Shown here: positions 15,220 through 55,336 of the stretch, piece by piece
Layout of the letters: each line of letters opens with the position of its first letter
Numbering within the stretch: the first letter of the stretch is position 1
Assembly: GCA_964435585.1 (NCBI GenBank)
Contig: CAYSZT010000003.1
Span: 14,870-78,869, forward strand
DNA length: 64,000 nucleotides
Direction: 5' to 3'
Source of the DNA: an uncultured Metamycoplasma sp.
Lineage (GTDB): Bacteria > Bacillota_I > Bacilli_A > Mycoplasmatales > Metamycoplasmataceae
Translations under genes and position numbers: made by a program
Notes under the pieces: model-generated
Told to the model about the DNA's origin: nothing
The model's input: the letters and a program-made list of their open reading frames with translations, nothing else
Database searches by the model: none

Positions 15220-15244
15220 TTGAATCTTTTAGTTAGAAAATTAA

Positions 15245-15276
15245 AAAATCTATTGGTTTTCAGTAGATTTTTTTTT
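15245..15276 (+). terminator. rho-independent terminator after pgk
   Basis: Stem aaaatctattg / cagtagatttt (11 bp including one G-U), loop gtttt, followed by a T-run through 15276. Confidence 0.6.
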
Positions 15277-15286
15277 ATTCTTTTTT

Positions 15287-15295
15287 TGATATAAT
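15287..15295 (+). promoter_or_regulatory. extended -10 (TGaTATAAT) for gyrB
   Basis: tgatataat lies 57 nt upstream of the gyrB ATG, immediately after the pgk terminator. Confidence 0.45.
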
Positions 15296-15307
15296 TTTTA
15301 TTAGTAA

Positions 15308-17350: not shown

Positions 17351-18289
17351 TTATGCTTTAAAGTCATTTAATTGATTTATTCATGATACTATTTCATGAG
17401 AATGACTTGTACCGTGATCGTGGAAACAAAGAATGAATAGAGCAGCTGCAATCCCGATAATAAAGATCAACATAGTGATATATCAACTTTTACCTGAGAT
17501 TCTTAAATCATGTAGGAATTCAGGGAAGAATTCAATGATAGAAATGAACAATAGAAACGCTGCTGCTATTAATTGAACAACATGAATTGCTATTTCATTT
17601 TCAAGCGAGAATCACCCAATAATCGCTCCGATTACAATCAATGGAATAACTAGACCTACAGCAATCAAACTATTTGCTGTTGCTCTTTTTTTAGAAATAC
17701 CCATGTCAATTTGTCTATAGTAGATGATTAGTTCTTCTGGGATAACATGAATTACAAATGAACAAAGGAAGACAATATTTACAACATTAATACTCTCTCT
17801 TGCGATTTGAGAACAAAGTAATCCAATAATAATTCCGTCAGGTATTCTGTGAGTTAGAAGAAAGAAGATGGCAAATGCTTTTGATTTAGGATTATAGTCA
17901 GACACATTAAATATCATTTCGTCATGATTGTGTGTATGAATATCTGTCTTGCCTTTTTTATTAGCAAAAAAGAATTTAATTCCTAAACACAATAGTAATC
18001 CACCAAGAACAACAGAAGTAATGACTGCTGCAGTTATCACCTTACCAACAACCTCATTATTCATTTCAGAGATAAAATGTTCTTCAAGATGAATTTTTGA
18101 TTCACCAATGAATAAAACAGTTGACATGATCAAGAAAAATCCTGATGAAAAGGCATAAAGATAACGATTAGCTTTTTTACTAATTGTAGGTTTTAAAATA
18201 GGAAGTATCGCCCCGCATAACAAAGGAATACCTATTACAAATGCAGAGATACAAGATATAACAACTACTAATATTTGAACGTCGTTCAT
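17351..18289 (-). CDS. ZIP-family divalent metal (zinc) transporter, ZupT-like
   Basis: Track ORF 17612..18289 continues across TGA codons to the TAA at 17351..17353 (checked codon by codon). Multiple TM segments, His-rich loop (TDIHTHNHDE), C-terminal HDHGTSHSHE. Confidence 0.85.
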
Positions 18290-18308
18290 TTTATTAGTAC
18301 CTTTCTAC

Positions 18309-18332
18309 GTAAACTTATCTTGATAAGTTTAC
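18309..18332. promoter_or_regulatory. perfect 11-bp inverted repeat (gtaaacttatc tt gataagtttac), candidate operator upstream of the ZIP transporter
   Basis: It lies 20-43 nt upstream of the ZIP ATG (18289) in the 60-nt spacer. No T-run follows it on the minus strand, so it is unlikely to terminate the nuclease gene. Confidence 0.45.
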
Positions 18333-18349
18333 AAGTTTCATTTTATCAA

Positions 18350-18922
18350 ATTAGATTATTAACTAGGAAATATTTTTCTTAATGTTGCTTCACTTTCAGA
18401 TCAAAAACCTTTTTTATTTTTCTTTGCATAATCTTGTAAGTCATAAAGATTATTTACATAGTCAGTATCATAATAATAAAAGTAATTATTTTTGATGGTT
18501 GAGATATATCTAACGATAGCGAATCCATTTTTAATCATGTAGGAACCGTAGTCTAACCCATTGTCTAGGGTAACTTTTGCTATTTTTCTATGATACTTAT
18601 CTTCTTTCGAAGTTTCTACTTCAACATTTCTATTTTTCAAGATTTTACTAGCTTCATTTTTTGCTATTGTTCCATAAAAATATTGTGGCCCACTAGTATT
18701 ATTGAAGTTATTATTTGAATCATATGTTTCAGGTGTATCTATGCCAAGAATTCTATATCTTTGACTTGAACTTTCAAAAGTATCACCATCAATGATTTTA
18801 TTAACTATTATGTTTTTTGAATAATTTGAAACAAGGTTACATGATGTTGAGGTAACAAATTGAGTTATACAACATAATGAACCTATAAGTGTTAAGGAAA
18901 TTTTTTTAAAATTAAGCTTTAT
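18350..18922 (-). CDS. secreted/lipoprotein thermonuclease (SNase-like); start codon uncertain (non-canonical)
   Basis: The frame of track ORF 18401..18640 extends both ways across TGA. The upstream part encodes (I/M)KLNFKKISLTLIGSLCCITQFVTSTSC (signal/lipobox) and the SNase motif IIDGDTF...RYRILGIDTPE. There is no in-frame ATG/GTG/TTG between the TAG at 18932..18934 and the catalytic motif. TAA stop at 18350..18352. Confidence 0.7.
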
Positions 18923-19811: not shown

Positions 19812-19881
19812 AATAATAACTCCTTAAATTAGTGATCAAATAAACTTTTTCCTCACACATTGTGAGTCTGACACCAAAATT

Positions 19882-19890
19882 ATTTTACCA
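19882..19890 (-). promoter_or_regulatory. extended -10 (TGgTAAAAT) for fba
   Basis: The reverse complement reads tggtaaaat, about 70 nt upstream of the fba ATG. Confidence 0.4.
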
Positions 19891-19939
19891 CTTTATGTTT
19901 TTTTGTTAATCACTTTCTAGCTAGGAAGTTAGCAAATTT

Positions 19940-19948
19940 TGATATAAT
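19940..19948 (+). promoter_or_regulatory. extended -10 (TGaTATAAT) for comEA-comEC
   Basis: tgatataat lies 50 nt upstream of the comEA ATG, in the divergent fba/comEA spacer. Confidence 0.4.
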
Positions 19949-19997
19949 AGAAACACGACAAGATTTCTGAATTCTTCTCCTGGTTTTTAAGGAGAAT

Positions 19998-20504
19998 ATG
20001 ATAAAGAAAAAGAAAAAAATATGAATAATTTCAGCCATTACTTTAACTATTATTTGTGTAGCTTCATTTGCTACATATAAAATTTGTAATACACAAATTT
20101 CTAAATCTGTAACTTCAAAGAATGATTATACTGTTGCGATAAATGGCGCAGTTAAGAATCCTGGTTCATATACGTTCAATAGACCAAAATCATTAAGGGA
20201 AATAATTTTTTCTGCTAGTGTTTTAACCAATGCAGACACAACTTCACTAGAGCTTGAGAAAATCATAGATGAAGATTGCCAAATAATTGTTCCTTACAAA
20301 GTTGGTTCAGTAAAGAAAATAAAGTGAAAAGATTTAAATTCTGTGGAACAATTAACAGATTTGGGAGTTAAAAAATCTATTGCTCAAACAATAATAAACT
20401 TTAGGCGTCAAAACGAAAGCACTACATGAGAAGAAATTCTTTCTTTAAAAGGAATTGGCCAAGTAACTTTAGGACAATTAAAAGATATAATTGATCTTTC
20501 TTAA
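19998..20504 (+). CDS. comEA: competence protein ComEA-like DNA receptor (TM anchor, SLBB-like region, helix-hairpin-helix)
   Basis: aaggaga RBS. MIKKKKKIW(TGA)IISAITLTIICVASF anchor, INGAVKNPGSYTF, C-terminal HhH LTDLGVKKSIAQTIINFR...LSLKGIGQVTLGQLKD. TAA stop at 20502..20504. Confidence 0.8.
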
Positions 20505-33405: not shown

Positions 33406-34185
33406 ATGAAAAAATACATTGATTTACACTGCCATCCTTTTAAAGAATATTTTGAATCCCCAATGGATGTAATTAATCAAGCTAAAAAAAAGGGAGTTAG
33501 TAAAATATTTCTGGTCGGAACAGATTTAAATAATTCAAAAGAATCAATCGAGTTAGCTAAAAAGGATGAATCACTATTTCCGATTATTGGTATCCATCCA
33601 AATGATTCTTGAAACGAGCGAATAATAGATGATTTAGAAAAGCTCGTCGATGAAACAGTGGTTGGTATTGGTGAAGTTGGTCTTGATTATCACTATGAAG
33701 AAAGCCCATTAAAAGAAATGCAAGAAAGATGTTTTAGAAAACAAATTGAAATTGCAATTAGAAATAATATTCCTGTCATTGTCCACTCAAGAGATGCTCA
33801 TGAAGATACTTATAGAATAATAAAGGAATATAGAACAAATTTTCCATCTTCAATATTCATTCTTCATTCATATTCTTCAGGTCCTGATTATGTTCAAAAA
33901 TATGTCGATTTAGGTGTCTATTTTTCTTTCTCGGGCATAGTGACTTTTAAAAATGCAAAGGACACTCAAGAAGCTGCAAAATTAGTTCCATTAGACTTAA
34001 TTTTTTGTGAAACCGATACTCCCTATTTAGCACCGACTCCTCATAGAGGTAGGACAAATTTACCTGAATATGTTGTTGAAACAACTAATTTTATTGCCCA
34101 GTTAAAAGGAATAGGTGTTGAGGTATTATTGGAAAATATTAATAATAATTTAAATAGGTGTTTTCCAAAACATTTCAAAAGCTAA
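33406..34185 (+). CDS. tatD: TatD-family metal-dependent hydrolase/DNase
   Basis: Track ORFs 33406.. and 33658.. share a frame and join across TGA. DLHCH, GEVGLDYHY, VHSRDA, ETDTPYLAP. Confidence 0.9.
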
Positions 34186-34255
34186 TTTGTTAAATGGGAA
34201 GTTTTCAAAGCAAATAATCACATTTTAAATACCAGTAACTTTTGTTGACAAATTT

Positions 34256-34302
34256 ACAAAATCTGGCGTTTTTTTTTTTTTTTTTTTGTAAAATGAATCT
34301 TG
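34256..34302 (+). promoter_or_regulatory. conserved promoter/leader module A: acaaaatcTggcg-T19-g-TAAAAT-gaatcttg
   Basis: A -10-like TAAAAT sits at 34289..34294, directly next to the homopolymer. The flanks are near-identical to the reverse complement of 54829..54871. Confidence 0.55.
34269..34287 (+). repeat. homopolymeric T19 tract
   Basis: I counted 19 consecutive T between ...ctggcg and gtaaaatg. It is the longest homopolymer in the window. Confidence 0.9.
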
Positions 34303-34315
34303 TAAAGGAGAATTT

Positions 34316-34609
34316 ATGGACCAACTAGCATTAGCAAAGTCAATTAAGAAAAAAGGAATTATTGGATTAATTTTAATTTTCACATTGATTGGAGCAATCG
34401 TTACCTTGATTTTAGATATTATTTGTGGTGTAAAAATAATTTCAACTAATTGAAAGAATAAAGAAGTTGAAAATAGCAAGGTAATTTGAGGAGTTTTTTG
34501 TTTTGTAATATTAGGACCAATTTCAGCAATTATCTTTGGTTCAATTGCAGTGAACAAGATGCAAGAAAATTCAGATGGAACAACATATAGTAATATCGAA
34601 GAAGACTAG
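34316..34609 (+). CDS. small two-TM membrane protein (97 aa), family member P1
   Basis: aaaggag RBS and ATG at 34316, with two in-frame TGA(Trp). Shares TNW[KR]N...IWG[VI]F..V.LGPIS..IFGS with the next gene. Acidic C-terminus ...YSNIEED. Confidence 0.65.
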
Positions 34610-34616
34610 AACATAG

Positions 34617-34625
34617 TGCTATAAT
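34617..34625 (+). promoter_or_regulatory. extended -10 (TGcTATAAT) for CDS 34640
   Basis: tgctataat ends 14 nt before the ATG, and no SD sequence lies between them (short-leader transcript). Confidence 0.45.
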
Positions 34626-34639
34626 ATTGTTACCACGAT

Positions 34640-35089
34640 ATGAAAACAAATTTAAGGTCAAAAGCTATTCAAATAAGAACAATGGGAATTATTGGTATTT
34701 GCATTTATGCATTAGATATTGCTCTTTCCATTTTTTTAATTTCTATGTCGACTTCATTTATTAATGGAGGTGTTTCAGAAAACACATTTGGAAATTCATA
34801 TGGTATAGTTTCGATTATTCTTTTAGTTTTCTCTGTGATTCTTTTTGCACTAAACATAACATGCTGTATTAAGATATTAACAACAAATTGAAGAAATGAA
34901 AAATTGAACAACCAAAAGACAATTTGAGGAATTTTTTCAATTGTTCTTTTAGGCCCAATTTCATCTGTGATTTTCGGTTCAATGGCTTCTAAAACACTAA
35001 AGAATCATCAAGACAATAATTATGAACTTAATGTTTCTACTGAAAATAATGTTAGTGAAGAGAATGACTATTATATAGAGGGAGATTAG
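34640..35089 (+). CDS. small four-TM membrane protein (149 aa), family member P2
   Basis: Track ORF 34640..34891 extends across TGA codons to the TAG at 35087..35089. Its C-terminal half is paralogous to P1 and its N-terminal half resembles the C-terminal half of CDS 54137..54814. It ends ...NDYYIEGD. Confidence 0.7.
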
Positions 35090-35092
35090 TAA

Positions 35093-35935
35093 TTAATCTT
35101 CTTTTTTTGAAAAATATTTTTTTGTTTTTTCGATATCCTCATTACTTATTTGGTCAAATCTTTGATTCGTAATTATTCTTTCAATATCTAATATTTGTAT
35201 CTTTGTCTTTTGGTCGAAGATATTTTTTTTGCTATCAAAATTAATTAGCTCATACTTAATATCTTTATCGATCGAAAAATTAATTATTCCATGATATCAA
35301 TAATCATCAATAAGGATTTTAAAAAAATAATTACCAGTATGAGGTTGTTGAACTATTTGCTCTCATCTCATTTTTCCTTCAATTACAGAGACGTCAAAAA
35401 TTAATGGATTAACAAGAAGATTTTTAATAAGATTATATTCACCGAATTCATGCATTTGTTTTATATCTGAAGAAGAAATTTTGACTCCCTCGATTTTTAA
35501 AAGATCTATAACCTCAACATTTGCTTTGGAAATATTTTTAATGTCCTTAGCTGAGCAGGATCTATTCTTACCAAATTTAAAATCATGGCCAACAATATAG
35601 TTTTCAACGTTAAAGTTATTGTCAATGTAATTGATAAAGTCCTTGCCTTCAATGCATTTAAATTCAAAATCAAATTTAGCCACTAAAACAAAATTAAACC
35701 CAATATTGGCAAGATTAGTTAATTTGTTTTCGAGAGTTTGCAATTGAATCTTGTCTTCTTTAATAATTAAAAGAATTCCAATATCGTTATTTCCTGAAAT
35801 TGATTTAGCTTTTTCAAAAAGTTGATAATGACCTCTATGAAAAAGTTCAAACTCACCTAGCAAAAGTGTAGATTTATTTTTAGAAAATTCCTTGCTATTG
35901 ATTTTCTTTTTAATATCGAATTTGTATACATCCAT
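35093..35935 (-). CDS. ribF: FAD synthetase / riboflavin kinase-like RibF (divergent kinase half)
   Basis: Track ORF 35363..35935 extends across TGA to the TAA at 35093..35095. LLGEFELFHRGHYQL is the nucleotidyltransferase motif. It sits downstream of truB, as in many bacteria. Confidence 0.75.
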
Positions 35936-54136: not shown

Positions 54137-54814
54137 TTAATCTTCTTCTATATAGTAATTTGAAGAACTATCTGAAGGACTGTAACTTGAGCTATTTTCC
54201 TTACCATAAGCTTTGTTGAATTGACTTTTTAGAACTAATGCTAATACAAAGATTGCTATTATTGATAATAACTCAATCACTGCCAGGAATTCAACGCTAC
54301 CAATAATAAAATTAAGAATCAACATTAAAACATCTATACCAAAAACACAAATACCAACAATTGATGTTGTGAGCATCAGCCCTTTTAACCTACCGAAATG
54401 TTTTGCTCCTCTTATTATTTTTATAGAGAAGACAAAAATACCAATAATTGCTGTTAGTAATAGAATTGCTACGGCAACTAGATAAATTCAGTAGAAGGCA
54501 TTAAGCTCATAATATCCGTAACTATCACGTTTATAGAATACATCAGTAAATAACAAGATTAGAAACAATATATAAAGTACAAAATATGCAGGAACCAATC
54601 AAGAAAAACCAACTAACCCTTTAATATTTTTTCTCATTGTTTTTGTTTCATTAGAGTCAGAGTTTGTATTTGTTTCTGAATAGTTACTAAATGAAGACGT
54701 TTTACCACTTTTAATTTCATCTAGCTCTTTTTCCATTCTAGCTTTTTCAAGTTCTAGTCTTAATCTTTCGTGTTCTTGTTTAAGTTGTTCATTTGTTTGT
54801 TTTTGTTCACTCAT
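54137..54814 (-). CDS. polytopic membrane protein (225 aa), family member P3, with an N-terminal coiled-coil segment
   Basis: Track ORFs 54137..54376 and 54599..54814 share a frame, and I translated the gap and found it open. The segment TSIVGICVFGIDVLMLILNFI resembles P2 MGIIGICIYALDIALSIFLI. It ends ...SSNYYIEED. Confidence 0.7.
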
Positions 54815-54828
54815 AAAATGACCTCAAT

Positions 54829-54871
54829 CAAGATTCATTTTACAAAAAAAAAAAAAAACGCCGGATTTTGT
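54829..54871 (-). promoter_or_regulatory. conserved promoter/leader module B: acaaaatcCggcg-T15-g-TAAAAT-gaatcttg (read on the minus strand)
   Basis: The reverse complement matches module A (34256..34302) apart from tract length and one flank base. The -10-like TAAAAT lies at 54837..54842 on the minus strand. Confidence 0.55.
54844..54858 (-). repeat. homopolymeric A15 tract (T15 on the coding strand of the downstream gene)
   Basis: I counted 15 consecutive A between ...ttttac and cgccgg. Confidence 0.9.
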
Positions 54872-54889
54872 TGATTTTTTCCACAAAAA

Positions 54890-55336
54890 CTAGCGTTTTT
54901 TCTTATAAATTCTTGCTATTTTTCATTTCATTATAAAGACTGTCATGAATTGGATTGCAGGTAAAAATGAAATGATAGCTCAAAATAAAATCCAACCCTT
55001 CATTTCTTTAAGAGGACAAGAGATCACTTTTACCAATAGAATAATTGTTAATATTCAAGAGATAAAAACCAAGATACCAATTATAGACGTAAATATACCA
55101 ATAAGGACAACCCTTATTCTGTGAATTTCATCATTTTTAGTTAATTCGCTAATAATAATGATTATAAGAGAGGCAATAATAATTGTTAACTTTACTAGAA
55201 ACATATTTGATAAACGAACAATGTTTCTATAAATTGGGACTAAAAGAGAAATGGATTGATTTGAAAAGTGACTACTTTTTAAGTTGTCCTTGAATTTATT
55301 GATTTTTCTTTCTCTTCTACTTGCTAATAAACCCAT
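54890..55336 (-). CDS. hypothetical membrane protein (148 aa) downstream of hpt
   Basis: Track ORF 55055..55336 extends across TGA codons to the TAG at 54890..54892 (checked codon by codon). It starts 2 nt after the hpt stop. Confidence 0.55.

What the first reader, a model, noticed from the sequence alone, without database searches (positions are those of the whole stretch)
34256..34318. T19 homopolymer fused to a -10 box upstream of a small membrane-protein gene: candidate phase-variable promoter (locus A)
The spacer after tatD contains acaaaatctggcg, then 19 consecutive T, then g-TAAAAT-gaatcttg-taaaggag(RBS)-N7-ATG. The tract sits exactly where the spacer and -35 region of the promoter would be. 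It is bordered by a GC-rich clamp (ggcg), which is unusual in this AT-rich DNA. In Mycoplasma, length changes in homopolymer or dinucleotide tracts within promoters are an established ON/OFF switch for surface proteins. Known examples are the poly-A tract in M. hyorhinis vlp promoters and the TA repeats in M. mycoides vmm. Here the controlled gene is a tiny polytopic membrane protein rather than a classic variable lipoprotein, which I have not seen described.
Basis: partly seen in the sequence, partly recalled or inferred. Interest (0 to 1): 0.8.

Follow-up and report, generated by a model that had tools for sequence, protein, structure and literature searches.

The report
Slippery poly-T terminator–promoter junction, two copies
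The 19-T run is real and is one of two copies of a short module in an uncultured mycoplasma, where a terminator's T-tail runs straight into the promoter of a small membrane-protein gene; the run changes length between near-identical assemblies, but nothing here shows it works as an on/off switch, and such tracts are already known in mycoplasmas.

Summary
T19 lies at 34269-34287, flanked by ACAAAATCTGGCG and G-TAAAAT-GAATCTTG, then AAGGAG and an ATG. The organism uses TGA as Trp, has 28% GC, and is related to Mesomycoplasma moatsii and Metamycoplasma sualvi.

The tract is not unique. A second copy with identical flanks carries T15 on the minus strand (54844-54858), upstream of another membrane-protein gene. 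These are the only homopolymers longer than 9 nt in 64 kb.

In both copies a hairpin precedes the tract just after the upstream gene's stop codon, so the tract doubles as an intrinsic-terminator U-tail. Locus B has the strongest such hairpin in the window. Locus A's is typical of gene ends here.

No −35-like hexamer exists at any spacing from 15 to 21 bp. The TG abuts TAAAAT without the spacer base seen in this genome's usual TGnTAWAAT promoters.

An independent assembly that is 99.96% identical has at least T20 and T16 at the two loci, and no other indel in 12.4 kb. The tracts are therefore length-unstable, or at least not reproducibly called.

Orthologs of the downstream gene in six other lineages have no tract. 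Poly-T tracts beside −10 boxes are already described in mycoplasmas. Some switch (maa2), and one (vpma) was shown not to.

Verdict: a real, probably hypermutable terminator–promoter junction. An ON/OFF switch is possible (about 0.3) but unproven. Interest is modest.

The parts
33406..34185 (+). tatD (259 aa, code 4), the upstream gene of locus A; its stop is 84 nt before the tract
   Evidence: Pfam TatD_DNase on the identical Logan gene
34227..34271 (+). Weak stem-loop (CCAG..UUUUGU / ACAAAA.CUGG, 10-nt loop) ending at the start of the T run; terminator-like hairpin of locus A
   Evidence: −6.4 kcal/mol, z −0.2. ranks it 64/342, equal to the median of gene-end T-runs in this window. It falls within the range of experimentally supported mycoplasma terminators (PMC2268961).
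34256..34268 (+). Conserved 5' flank ACAAAATCTGGCG (GC clamp), identical in locus B except T/C at one position
   Evidence: alignment
34269..34287 (+). T19 homopolymer (at least T20 in the Logan assembly)
34288..34302 (+). Conserved 3' flank GTAAAATGAATCTTG containing the −10-like TAAAAT (34289-34294); 15/15 identical in locus B
   Evidence: the only two exact matches in the window; the only −10-like hexamer in the 90 nt before the ATG
34305..34310 (+). Shine-Dalgarno AAGGAG, 5 nt before the ATG at 34316
34316..34609 (+). Gene A1: 97-aa 2-TM membrane protein. It gives sub-threshold hits to DUF4190 and the MYPE2350 family, and ends in ...YSNIEED.
34617..34625 (+). Ordinary extended −10 promoter TGCTATAAT for the second gene (A2)
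   Evidence: Read from the sequence; matches the genome's usual TGnTAWAAT promoter form
34640..35089 (+). Gene A2: 149-aa paralog of A1 (38% identity), ending in ...DYYIEGD
35077..35108 (+). Hairpin plus T7 at the A2 stop codon; terminator closing the A1-A2 cassette
   Evidence: −10.0 kcal/mol
54890..55336 (-). Upstream gene of locus B: 148-aa membrane protein whose stop codon lies inside the hairpin's 5' arm
54852..54902 (-). Strong symmetric hairpin (A-run/CGC..UUUUGU, loop, ACAAAA..GCG/U-run) ending in the tract; terminator of locus B
   Evidence: −16.5 to −18.8 kcal/mol, z −3.3 to −4.2; rank 1 of 342
54844..54858 (-). T15 homopolymer (A15 on the + strand); T16 in the Logan assembly
54829..54843 (-). 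Conserved 3' flank GTAAAATGAATCTTG with −10-like TAAAAT (54837-54842)
54137..54814 (-). Gene B1: 225-aa multi-TM orphan membrane protein, ending in ...NYYIEED
   Evidence: no homologs other than itself

Best explanation
The T19 run is the centre of a duplicated intergenic module of about 80 bp. The module runs: hairpin, GGCG, long T run, G-TAAAAT-GAATCTTG, RBS, ATG. It joins the intrinsic terminator of the upstream gene directly to a −35-less promoter for a small integral-membrane-protein gene.

The T run serves two structural roles. It is the terminator's U-tail, and it is the T-rich flank that ordinary promoters of this genome also carry just upstream of their −10 box. Here it has expanded to 15-20 nt.

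Runs this long slip during replication, and mollicutes are generally held to lack mismatch repair (background knowledge, not tested here). The length therefore drifts between close lineages.

Shown: the anatomy, the duplication, the terminator-like context, and the length difference between assemblies.

Inferred: that TAAAAT is the active −10; that the length differences are biological; and that length changes have at most a graded effect on expression rather than a clean ON/OFF effect. This last inference rests on the absence of a −35 element to mis-space and on the fact that a U-tail longer than about 8 nt adds nothing to termination.
For: - Two copies share 13 nt and 15 nt of essentially identical flank around T19 and T15. 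They are the only runs longer than 9 nt in 64 kb.
- Both tracts lie just downstream of a same-strand stop codon and are preceded by a hairpin. T-runs after stop codons in this window have mean hairpin energy −7.8 kcal/mol against −3.9 for intragenic ones. Locus B ranks 1/342. Locus A (−6.4) sits at the gene-end median.
- Mycoplasma terminators are described as weak stems plus very T-rich stretches, with supported examples of 5.8-6.3 kcal/mol (PMC2268961).
- Ordinary intergenic regions here show the same order of parts in milder form: A6-stem-loop-stem-T9, then attc, T7 and GATATAAT at 15243-15300.
- TAAAAT is the only −10-like hexamer before either ATG, and it sits at a conserved distance (27 or 28 nt).
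- No −35 exists at spacers of 15-21 bp.
- Logan assembly versus window: at least T20 vs T19, and T16 vs T15. There are 0 other indels and 5 SNPs in 12.4 kb, and 65 other A/T runs of 6-8 nt are identical.
- The vpma T tract immediately upstream of −10 does not switch.
Against: - Other terminators in the window manage with T6-T9, so termination does not explain why these two tails are 15-20 nt long.
- Both copies have kept long tracts, and their flanks are perfectly conserved while the loop and RBS regions diverged. This pattern is what one sees in contingency-gene families with conserved switch promoters such as vlp.
- The −10 lacks the properly spaced TG of this genome's normal promoters. It may therefore depend on the tract, which would make tract length matter.
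- Locus A's hairpin is no better than shuffled sequence (z −0.2).
- No transcript data exist.
Confidence: 0.55

Rival explanations
1. True contingency (phase-variable) promoter. Slipped-strand changes in T-run length switch transcription from the abutting TAAAAT box ON or OFF. This would stochastically control A1(-A2) and B1, as with the poly(A) tract of M. hyorhinis vlp and the poly(T) tract of M. arthritidis maa2.
For: - The tract abuts the only −10-like box. Tract lengths of 15-20 nt place the GC clamp in or out of the −35 zone.
- There are two copies with perfectly conserved flanks in front of membrane-protein genes that alone share a Y-x-x-IE(E/G)D tail.
- Both tracts differ by at least 1 nt between near-identical assemblies, while 65 shorter runs are unchanged.
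- These tails are longer than any other terminator tail in the window.
- The atypical −10, with no spaced TG, might need the tract.
- There is precedent for poly-T/poly-A promoter switches in mycoplasmas.
Against: - No −35-like hexamer exists to be mis-spaced.
- The controlled proteins are not lipoproteins, and A1 exposes only a loop of about 18 aa, so an immune-evasion rationale is weak.
- A1 orthologs in six lineages lack any tract.
- The architecturally closest case, the vpma T tract immediately upstream of −10, does not switch.
- A2 has its own ordinary promoter.
- No expression data exist.
Confidence: 0.3
2. The tracts are stable in vivo. The 19 vs at least 20 and 15 vs 16 differences, and the contig breaks, are technical: homopolymer miscalling, library-PCR slippage, or different assemblers. 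The element would then be a static terminator–promoter junction.
For: - Both differences are +1 in the same direction in the Logan assembly. That pattern could be a systematic caller difference.
- Three of the four contig ends at the tracts are fully explained by the 30-mer shared between loci A and B in a k=31 graph, not by heterogeneity (my inference).
- Illumina and nanopore reads are both unreliable at T15-T20 (general knowledge).
Against: - The two assemblies also differ by 5 SNPs, so they do not come from one identical consensus.
- The left arm of locus A ends at T20 with no following G. The shared repeat does not explain this. It implies either branching between length variants or loss of coverage.
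- Homopolymers of this length are intrinsically unstable in replication.
Confidence: 0.1
3. The conserved flanks are the point. The module would be a binding site for a regulator, or a remnant of a small mobile or repeated element, and the T run would be incidental.
For: Flank conservation is perfect (13 nt and 15 nt) while the neighbouring loop and RBS regions diverged. The arrangement at locus A is lineage-specific, because relatives have rsmA or another gene right after tatD.
Against: - There are only two copies in 64 kb, with no terminal inverted repeats or target duplications.
- The flanks were not found in the GTDB representative genomes (3' flank), in JGI metagenomes (3' flank; only chance hits), or in viral contigs (5' flank).
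- There is no Rfam family match.
Confidence: 0.05

Closest known systems
M. agalactiae vpma promoter T tract (Flitman-Tene 2003; tested in Chopra-Dewasthaly 2008, PMC2268961)
   Same: A homopolymeric T tract lies immediately upstream of the −10 box of a membrane-protein promoter in a hominis-group mycoplasma. Rho-independent terminators with weak stems and long T stretches sit nearby.
   Different: The vpma tract drives lipoprotein genes in an invertible locus, and it was shown not to generate OFF variants. Here the genes are small integral membrane proteins, the tract is fused to the upstream terminator, and switching is untested.
M. arthritidis maa2 poly(T) and M. hyorhinis vlp poly(A) promoter switches (Washburn 1998; Citti & Wise 1995; as summarised in PMC2268961 and PMC10502178)
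   Same: A long homopolymer lies in the promoter region next to −10. The 5' regions are conserved among paralogous loci, and slippage-prone lengths are about 15-20 nt.
   Different: Those tracts are described as the spacer between −35 and −10, and length changes were shown to switch transcription of variable surface lipoproteins. Here no −35 is recognisable, the products are not lipoproteins, and no expression data exist.
M. bovoculi vpbA-E contingency locus (PMC3931370)
   Same: [quoted passage not shown] This was predicted from sequence alone.
   Different: The vpb genes form one tandem array of surface proteins with 52-66% identity. Here there are two dispersed loci, one with a conserved 2-TM protein and one with an orphan protein, sharing only a C-terminal tail.
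Mollicute intrinsic (Rho-independent) terminators (de Hoon 2005, as cited in PMC2268961)
   Same: A weak hairpin is followed by a very T-rich stretch 0-84 nt after a stop codon. Hairpin energies are in the reported range.
   Different: The T stretch is a perfect run of 15-20 nt, against T6-T9 for other terminators in this window and 8-12 T in the vpma terminators. It also runs directly into a −10 box.

Membership tests
SSR-spacer phase-variable promoter (vlp / maa2 / vmm type) | Simple-sequence tract long enough for slipped-strand mispairing, inside the promoter | tested here: met
   T19 and T15 abut TAAAAT
SSR-spacer phase-variable promoter (vlp / maa2 / vmm type) | The tract forms the spacer between recognisable −35 and −10 hexamers, so that its length sets their spacing | tested here: not met
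   A −10-like TAAAAT is present. The best −35 match at spacers of 15-21 bp is 3/6 in locus A and 2/6 in locus B. The nearest TTGACA (34245-34250) is 38 bp away.
SSR-spacer phase-variable promoter (vlp / maa2 / vmm type) | Tract length varies between clones or strains | tested here: inconclusive
   The comparison gives 19 vs at least 20, and 15 vs 16, between the window and the Logan SRR14209496 contigs. These are the only indels in 12.4 kb. Only two assemblies are available, and technical error cannot be excluded.
SSR-spacer phase-variable promoter (vlp / maa2 / vmm type) | Expression of the downstream gene correlates with tract length | not testable with these tools
   No transcript, protein or read-level data are available
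SSR-spacer phase-variable promoter (vlp / maa2 / vmm type) | Controls variable surface lipoproteins of a multigene family with a conserved 5' region | tested here: not met
   There is no lipobox, and the products are 2-4 TM integral proteins. A1 belongs to a conserved 2-TM family, and B1 is an orphan. The conserved 5' module is present in both loci.
Intrinsic (Rho-independent) terminator | Stem-loop immediately followed by a U-rich run | tested here: met
   Locus B: −16.9 kcal/mol, rank 1/342, z −3.3 to −4.2. Locus A: −6.4 kcal/mol, at the gene-end median but not better than shuffles. The generic scanner, which requires at least 3 GC pairs and a loop of 8 nt or less, missed both.
Intrinsic (Rho-independent) terminator | Located shortly downstream of a same-strand stop codon | tested here: met
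   The tract is 84 nt after the tatD stop. In locus B the hairpin overlaps the stop codon of the 148-aa gene.
Intrinsic (Rho-independent) terminator | Transcripts end at the U-run in vivo | not testable with these tools
   Needs Term-seq or 3'-RACE
Extended −10 promoter typical of this genome (TGnTAWAAT) | TG placed one base upstream of the −10 hexamer | tested here: not met
   The module reads TTTG|TAAAAT with no spacer base. Most recognisable promoters in the window read TGnTAWAAT.

The most novel reading that the evidence does not exclude
The module is a portable terminator/poly-T/promoter cassette that this uncultured mycoplasma has placed in front of several small, non-lipoprotein integral membrane proteins sharing a C-terminal Y-Y-I-E-E-D tail. 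It would put them under stochastic, tract-length-dependent control. That would be a contingency regulon for membrane-embedded proteins rather than surface-coat proteins, in which a single tract both insulates from upstream transcription and sets promoter state.
Probability: 0.2. Interest if true: 0.55.

Novelty: new member of a known kind. Interest (0 to 1): 0.35.

Why it matters
If tract length does control expression, homopolymer-promoter phase variation in mycoplasmas would extend from variable surface lipoproteins to tiny integral membrane proteins of unknown function. It would also show that one tract can serve as both terminator tail and promoter switch. If it does not, the locus is still a useful caution. 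It would be a second case after vpma in which a long T tract beside a −10 box is a terminator/promoter by-product and not a switch. It would also show that such tracts break assemblies and are mis-sized in MAGs. Either way this is a modest addition to a well-described theme.

Tried and rejected
I worked around this with TGA-free neighbouring genes and with ids from homology searches.
- Look-ups for rpsL and the 252-aa protein found nothing. The species is represented only by Logan run SRR14209496.
- The genome-collection scan for T10+GTAAAATGAATC gave 0 hits. The metagenome scan gave 10 hits, all unrelated chance matches with different 5' flanks. The viral scan for the 5' flank gave 0 hits.
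- Orthologous tatD loci in 11 related genomes have no tract. tatD is followed by rsmA or another gene, so there is no cross-species tract comparison to make.
- Upstream regions of A1 orthologs in six lineages have no homopolymer.
- Rfam found no family in the whole window. TRF found no other notable simple repeat.
- The generic promoter/terminator scanner found nothing at either tract, because its criteria do not fit AT-rich mollicute signals. I replaced it with a window-wide hairpin-energy comparison.
- I first read the Logan contig breaks at the tracts as evidence of heterogeneity, then rejected that for three of the four ends. They fall exactly where a k=31 graph must branch because loci A and B share T15 plus a 15-nt flank.
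- I considered a −35/−10 pairing with the perfect TTGACA at 34245-34250. I rejected it because the spacer is 38 bp.
- I considered reiterative transcription on the T run. I rejected it because the run lies upstream of the −10.
- The MAA2 paper (PMC108241) is not held, so its tract details rest on the summary in PMC2268961.

Full report
**1. What is there**

The window is AT-rich (28.4% GC) and its ORFs read through only if TGA is Trp, so this is a mollicute. TatD is at most 78% identical to any species-representative genome. The nearest relatives are uncultured Mycoplasma MAGs, Mesomycoplasma moatsii (73%) and Metamycoplasma sualvi (67%).

At 34269-34287 there are exactly 19 T. The layout is acaaaatctggcg, T19, g, TAAAAT, gaatcttg, taaaggag, aattt, then ATG at 34316.

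The gene that follows (A1, 34316-34609) encodes 97 aa with two hydrophobic segments and no lipobox. It gives only sub-threshold hits to DUF4190 and the MYPE2350 family.

A paralog follows (A2, 34640-35089, 38% identity). A2 has its own ordinary extended −10 promoter (TGCTATAAT, 34617-34625), and a hairpin plus T7 at its stop codon.

**2. The tract is one of two copies of a module**

The only other homopolymer longer than 9 nt in the 64 kb is A15 at 54844-54858. On the minus strand it reads caaaatccggcg, T15, gtaaaatgaatcttg, attgaggtcatttt, ATG.

The 15-nt 3' flank occurs exactly twice in the window. The 16-nt 5' pattern, which covers the 13-nt flank plus the first three T, has exact matches only at these two loci. 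Homology extends, more loosely, from TTTTGT about 30 nt upstream of the tract to the start codon, roughly 80 bp in all.

A first-order Markov model expects 0.002 T-runs of 19 or more and 0.086 A-runs of 15 or more. Two such outliers embedded in the same flanks cannot be chance.

Locus B precedes B1 (54137-54814, minus strand). B1 is a 225-aa multi-TM protein with no homolog among 5.8 billion proteins other than itself. Locus B follows a 148-aa membrane-protein gene (54890-55336).

A1, A2 and B1 are the only ORFs in the window ending in Y-x-x-IE(E/G)D.

**3. The tract also sits where a terminator tail belongs**

In locus B the sequence from the upstream stop codon onward folds into a symmetric hairpin: AAAAAACGC..UUUUGU, loop, ACAAAA..GCGUUUUUU. 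Its energy is −16.5 to −18.8 kcal/mol (z −3.3 to −4.2).

In locus A a weaker hairpin (−6.4 kcal/mol, z −0.2) ends at the tract, 84 nt after the tatD stop.

To judge this against the genome's own standard, I folded the 45 nt before every T-run of 6 or more in the window:
- Runs within 130 nt after a same-strand stop average −7.8 kcal/mol (n=16).
- Intragenic runs average −3.9 kcal/mol (n=301).
- Locus B ranks 1 of 342.
- Locus A ranks 64 of 342 and sits at the gene-end median (−6.95).

The literature describes mollicute terminators as weak stems with very T-rich tails. Supported M. agalactiae examples have only 5.8-6.3 kcal/mol (PMC2268961).

Ordinary intergenic regions here show the same order of parts in milder form. 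At 15243-15300 the sequence is A6-stem-loop-stem-T9, then attc, T7 and GATATAAT.

**4. The promoter side**

TAAAAT is the only −10-like hexamer in the 90 nt before either start codon. It lies at a conserved distance of 27 or 28 nt.

Most recognisable promoters in this window are extended −10 boxes (TGnTAWAAT), often with a T-rich stretch just upstream. The module has TG directly abutting TAAAAT, which is one base out of register.

No hexamer at spacers of 15-21 bp matches TTGACA better than 3/6. The perfect TTGACA at 34245-34250 is 38 bp from the −10.

The defining logic of the vlp/maa2/vmm switches is that tract length sets the −35/−10 spacing (PMC2268961). That logic has nothing obvious to act on here. 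Length changes would only move the GC clamp and hairpin relative to the −10.

**5. Is the length variable?**

The only other data for this organism are Logan contigs from run SRR14209496. Across 12.4 kb they differ from the window by 5 SNPs and no indel, apart from the tracts. Sixty-five other A/T runs of 6-8 nt are identical.

At locus B one contig reads straight through with T16, against T15 in the window. At locus A the left contig ends after ...ggcg plus T20 with no G, against T19 in the window.

The right-hand contigs of both loci start at T15 plus 16 nt, and the locus B left contig ends at T16 plus 15 nt. These three ends are exactly where a k=31 graph must branch, because the two loci share T15 plus the 15-nt flank. 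They say nothing about heterogeneity (my inference).

The locus A left end is not explained that way. It implies either coexisting length variants or loss of coverage. Both tracts therefore differ by at least 1 nt between near-identical assemblies. This fits hypermutability, but homopolymer sequencing error cannot be excluded.

**6. Comparative evidence**

In 11 related genomes tatD is followed by rsmA or another gene, with no tract and no small membrane-protein gene. A1 orthologs (53-78% identity) in six other lineages all have ordinary AT-rich upstream regions without a homopolymer. Scans of species-representative genomes, JGI metagenomes and viral contigs found no further copy of the module.

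The module is therefore a recent, species-specific feature and not a conserved regulatory element of the gene family. Rfam finds nothing in the window.

**7. What is known**

Poly(A) tracts in M. hyorhinis vlp promoters, the tract in the M. arthritidis maa2 promoter, and TA repeats in M. mycoides vmm are all reported to turn transcription ON or OFF. I recall the maa2 tract as poly(T); that paper was not held.

M. bovoculi vpbA-E each have a putative promoter with a homopolymeric T tract. The M. agalactiae vpma promoter has a T tract immediately upstream of its −10. That is the same layout as here, yet phase-locked mutants never produced OFF variants, so that tract does not switch.

A T tract beside a −10 box in a mycoplasma is therefore a known motif with both switching and non-switching precedents.

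**8. Conclusion**

The best-supported reading is a hypermutable terminator–promoter junction. The T run acts as U-tail and T-rich promoter flank, and its effect on expression is more likely graded or absent than ON/OFF (confidence 0.55).

A true contingency switch remains a live rival (0.3). Three things favour it. The tracts are much longer than any other terminator tail in the window. The flanks are perfectly conserved. The two loci drive proteins that share a unique C-terminal tail.

The remaining possibilities are a purely technical origin for the length differences (0.1) and a role centred on the flanks (0.05).

What is new is limited to the kind of gene involved (small non-lipoprotein membrane proteins) and the fusion with a terminator. 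I rate it a new member of a known kind, with interest 0.35.

Noticed in passing
L027 3957-3972 (also L028-L031; L033/L034 4584-4599): An (AT)n repeat lies inside the 5' part of a C5 DNA-methylase gene (PF00145) in Ureaplasma-like MAG contigs from several sequencing runs. In L027-L031, n is 7, 8 or 9 depending on the sample. Only n=9 gives an uninterrupted 365-aa methylase, and the others give 72- or 81-aa stubs. L033/L034 carry n=8. This looks like a classical phase-variable methyltransferase with real between-sample variation.
   Followed up: partly
window 34568-34609, 35048-35089, 54137-54178: A1, A2 and B1 are the only ORFs in the window ending in Y-(S/Y)-x-I-E-(E/G)-D (YSNIEED, YYIEGD, YYIEED). 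They are exactly the genes downstream of the two tract modules. A1 orthologs in other species lack this tail, and B1 is otherwise unrelated to A1 and A2. The function of the tail is unknown.
   Followed up: partly
window 18309-18350 (minus strand): The promoter of a ZIP-like metal transporter gene (17351-18289, minus strand) reads TTTGATAAAATGAAACTTGTAAAC. This closely resembles the module's TTTGTAAAATGAATCTTGTAAAG. It is followed by a 24-nt palindrome with perfect 11-bp arms (GTAAACTTATCAAGATAAGTTTAC, 18309-18332), which could be an operator or a leader hairpin.
   Followed up: no
window 35106 and 35118: Two of the five SNPs between the window and the Logan assembly are T-to-C changes. Both lie in or next to the T-rich stretch just after the A2 terminator and inside the 3' end of the convergent ribF-like gene.
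   Followed up: no
window 35089-35093: A2 (plus strand) and the convergent FAD-synthetase-like gene (minus strand, 35093-35935) are only 3 nt apart. The A2 terminator hairpin therefore overlaps the other gene's 3' coding end.
   Followed up: no
L011 2337-2353: Mycoplasma zalophi has an A17 homopolymer in the region upstream of the mnmE-tatD genes. Its flanks are unrelated to those of the module here.
   Followed up: no
window 1-64000: There is no Rfam match at gathering threshold anywhere in the 64 kb, so no tRNA, rRNA or known riboswitch. This holds despite several long gene-free gaps in my rough gene call, for example 18290-18589 and 19812-20425.
   Followed up: no
window 34186-35092 compared with L002-L012: The A1-A2 cassette, bounded by terminators on both sides, sits between tatD and the ribF-like gene only in this organism. 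In relatives tatD is followed directly by rsmA/ksgA, or in a few by another gene, which suggests a local insertion or rearrangement.
   Followed up: partly
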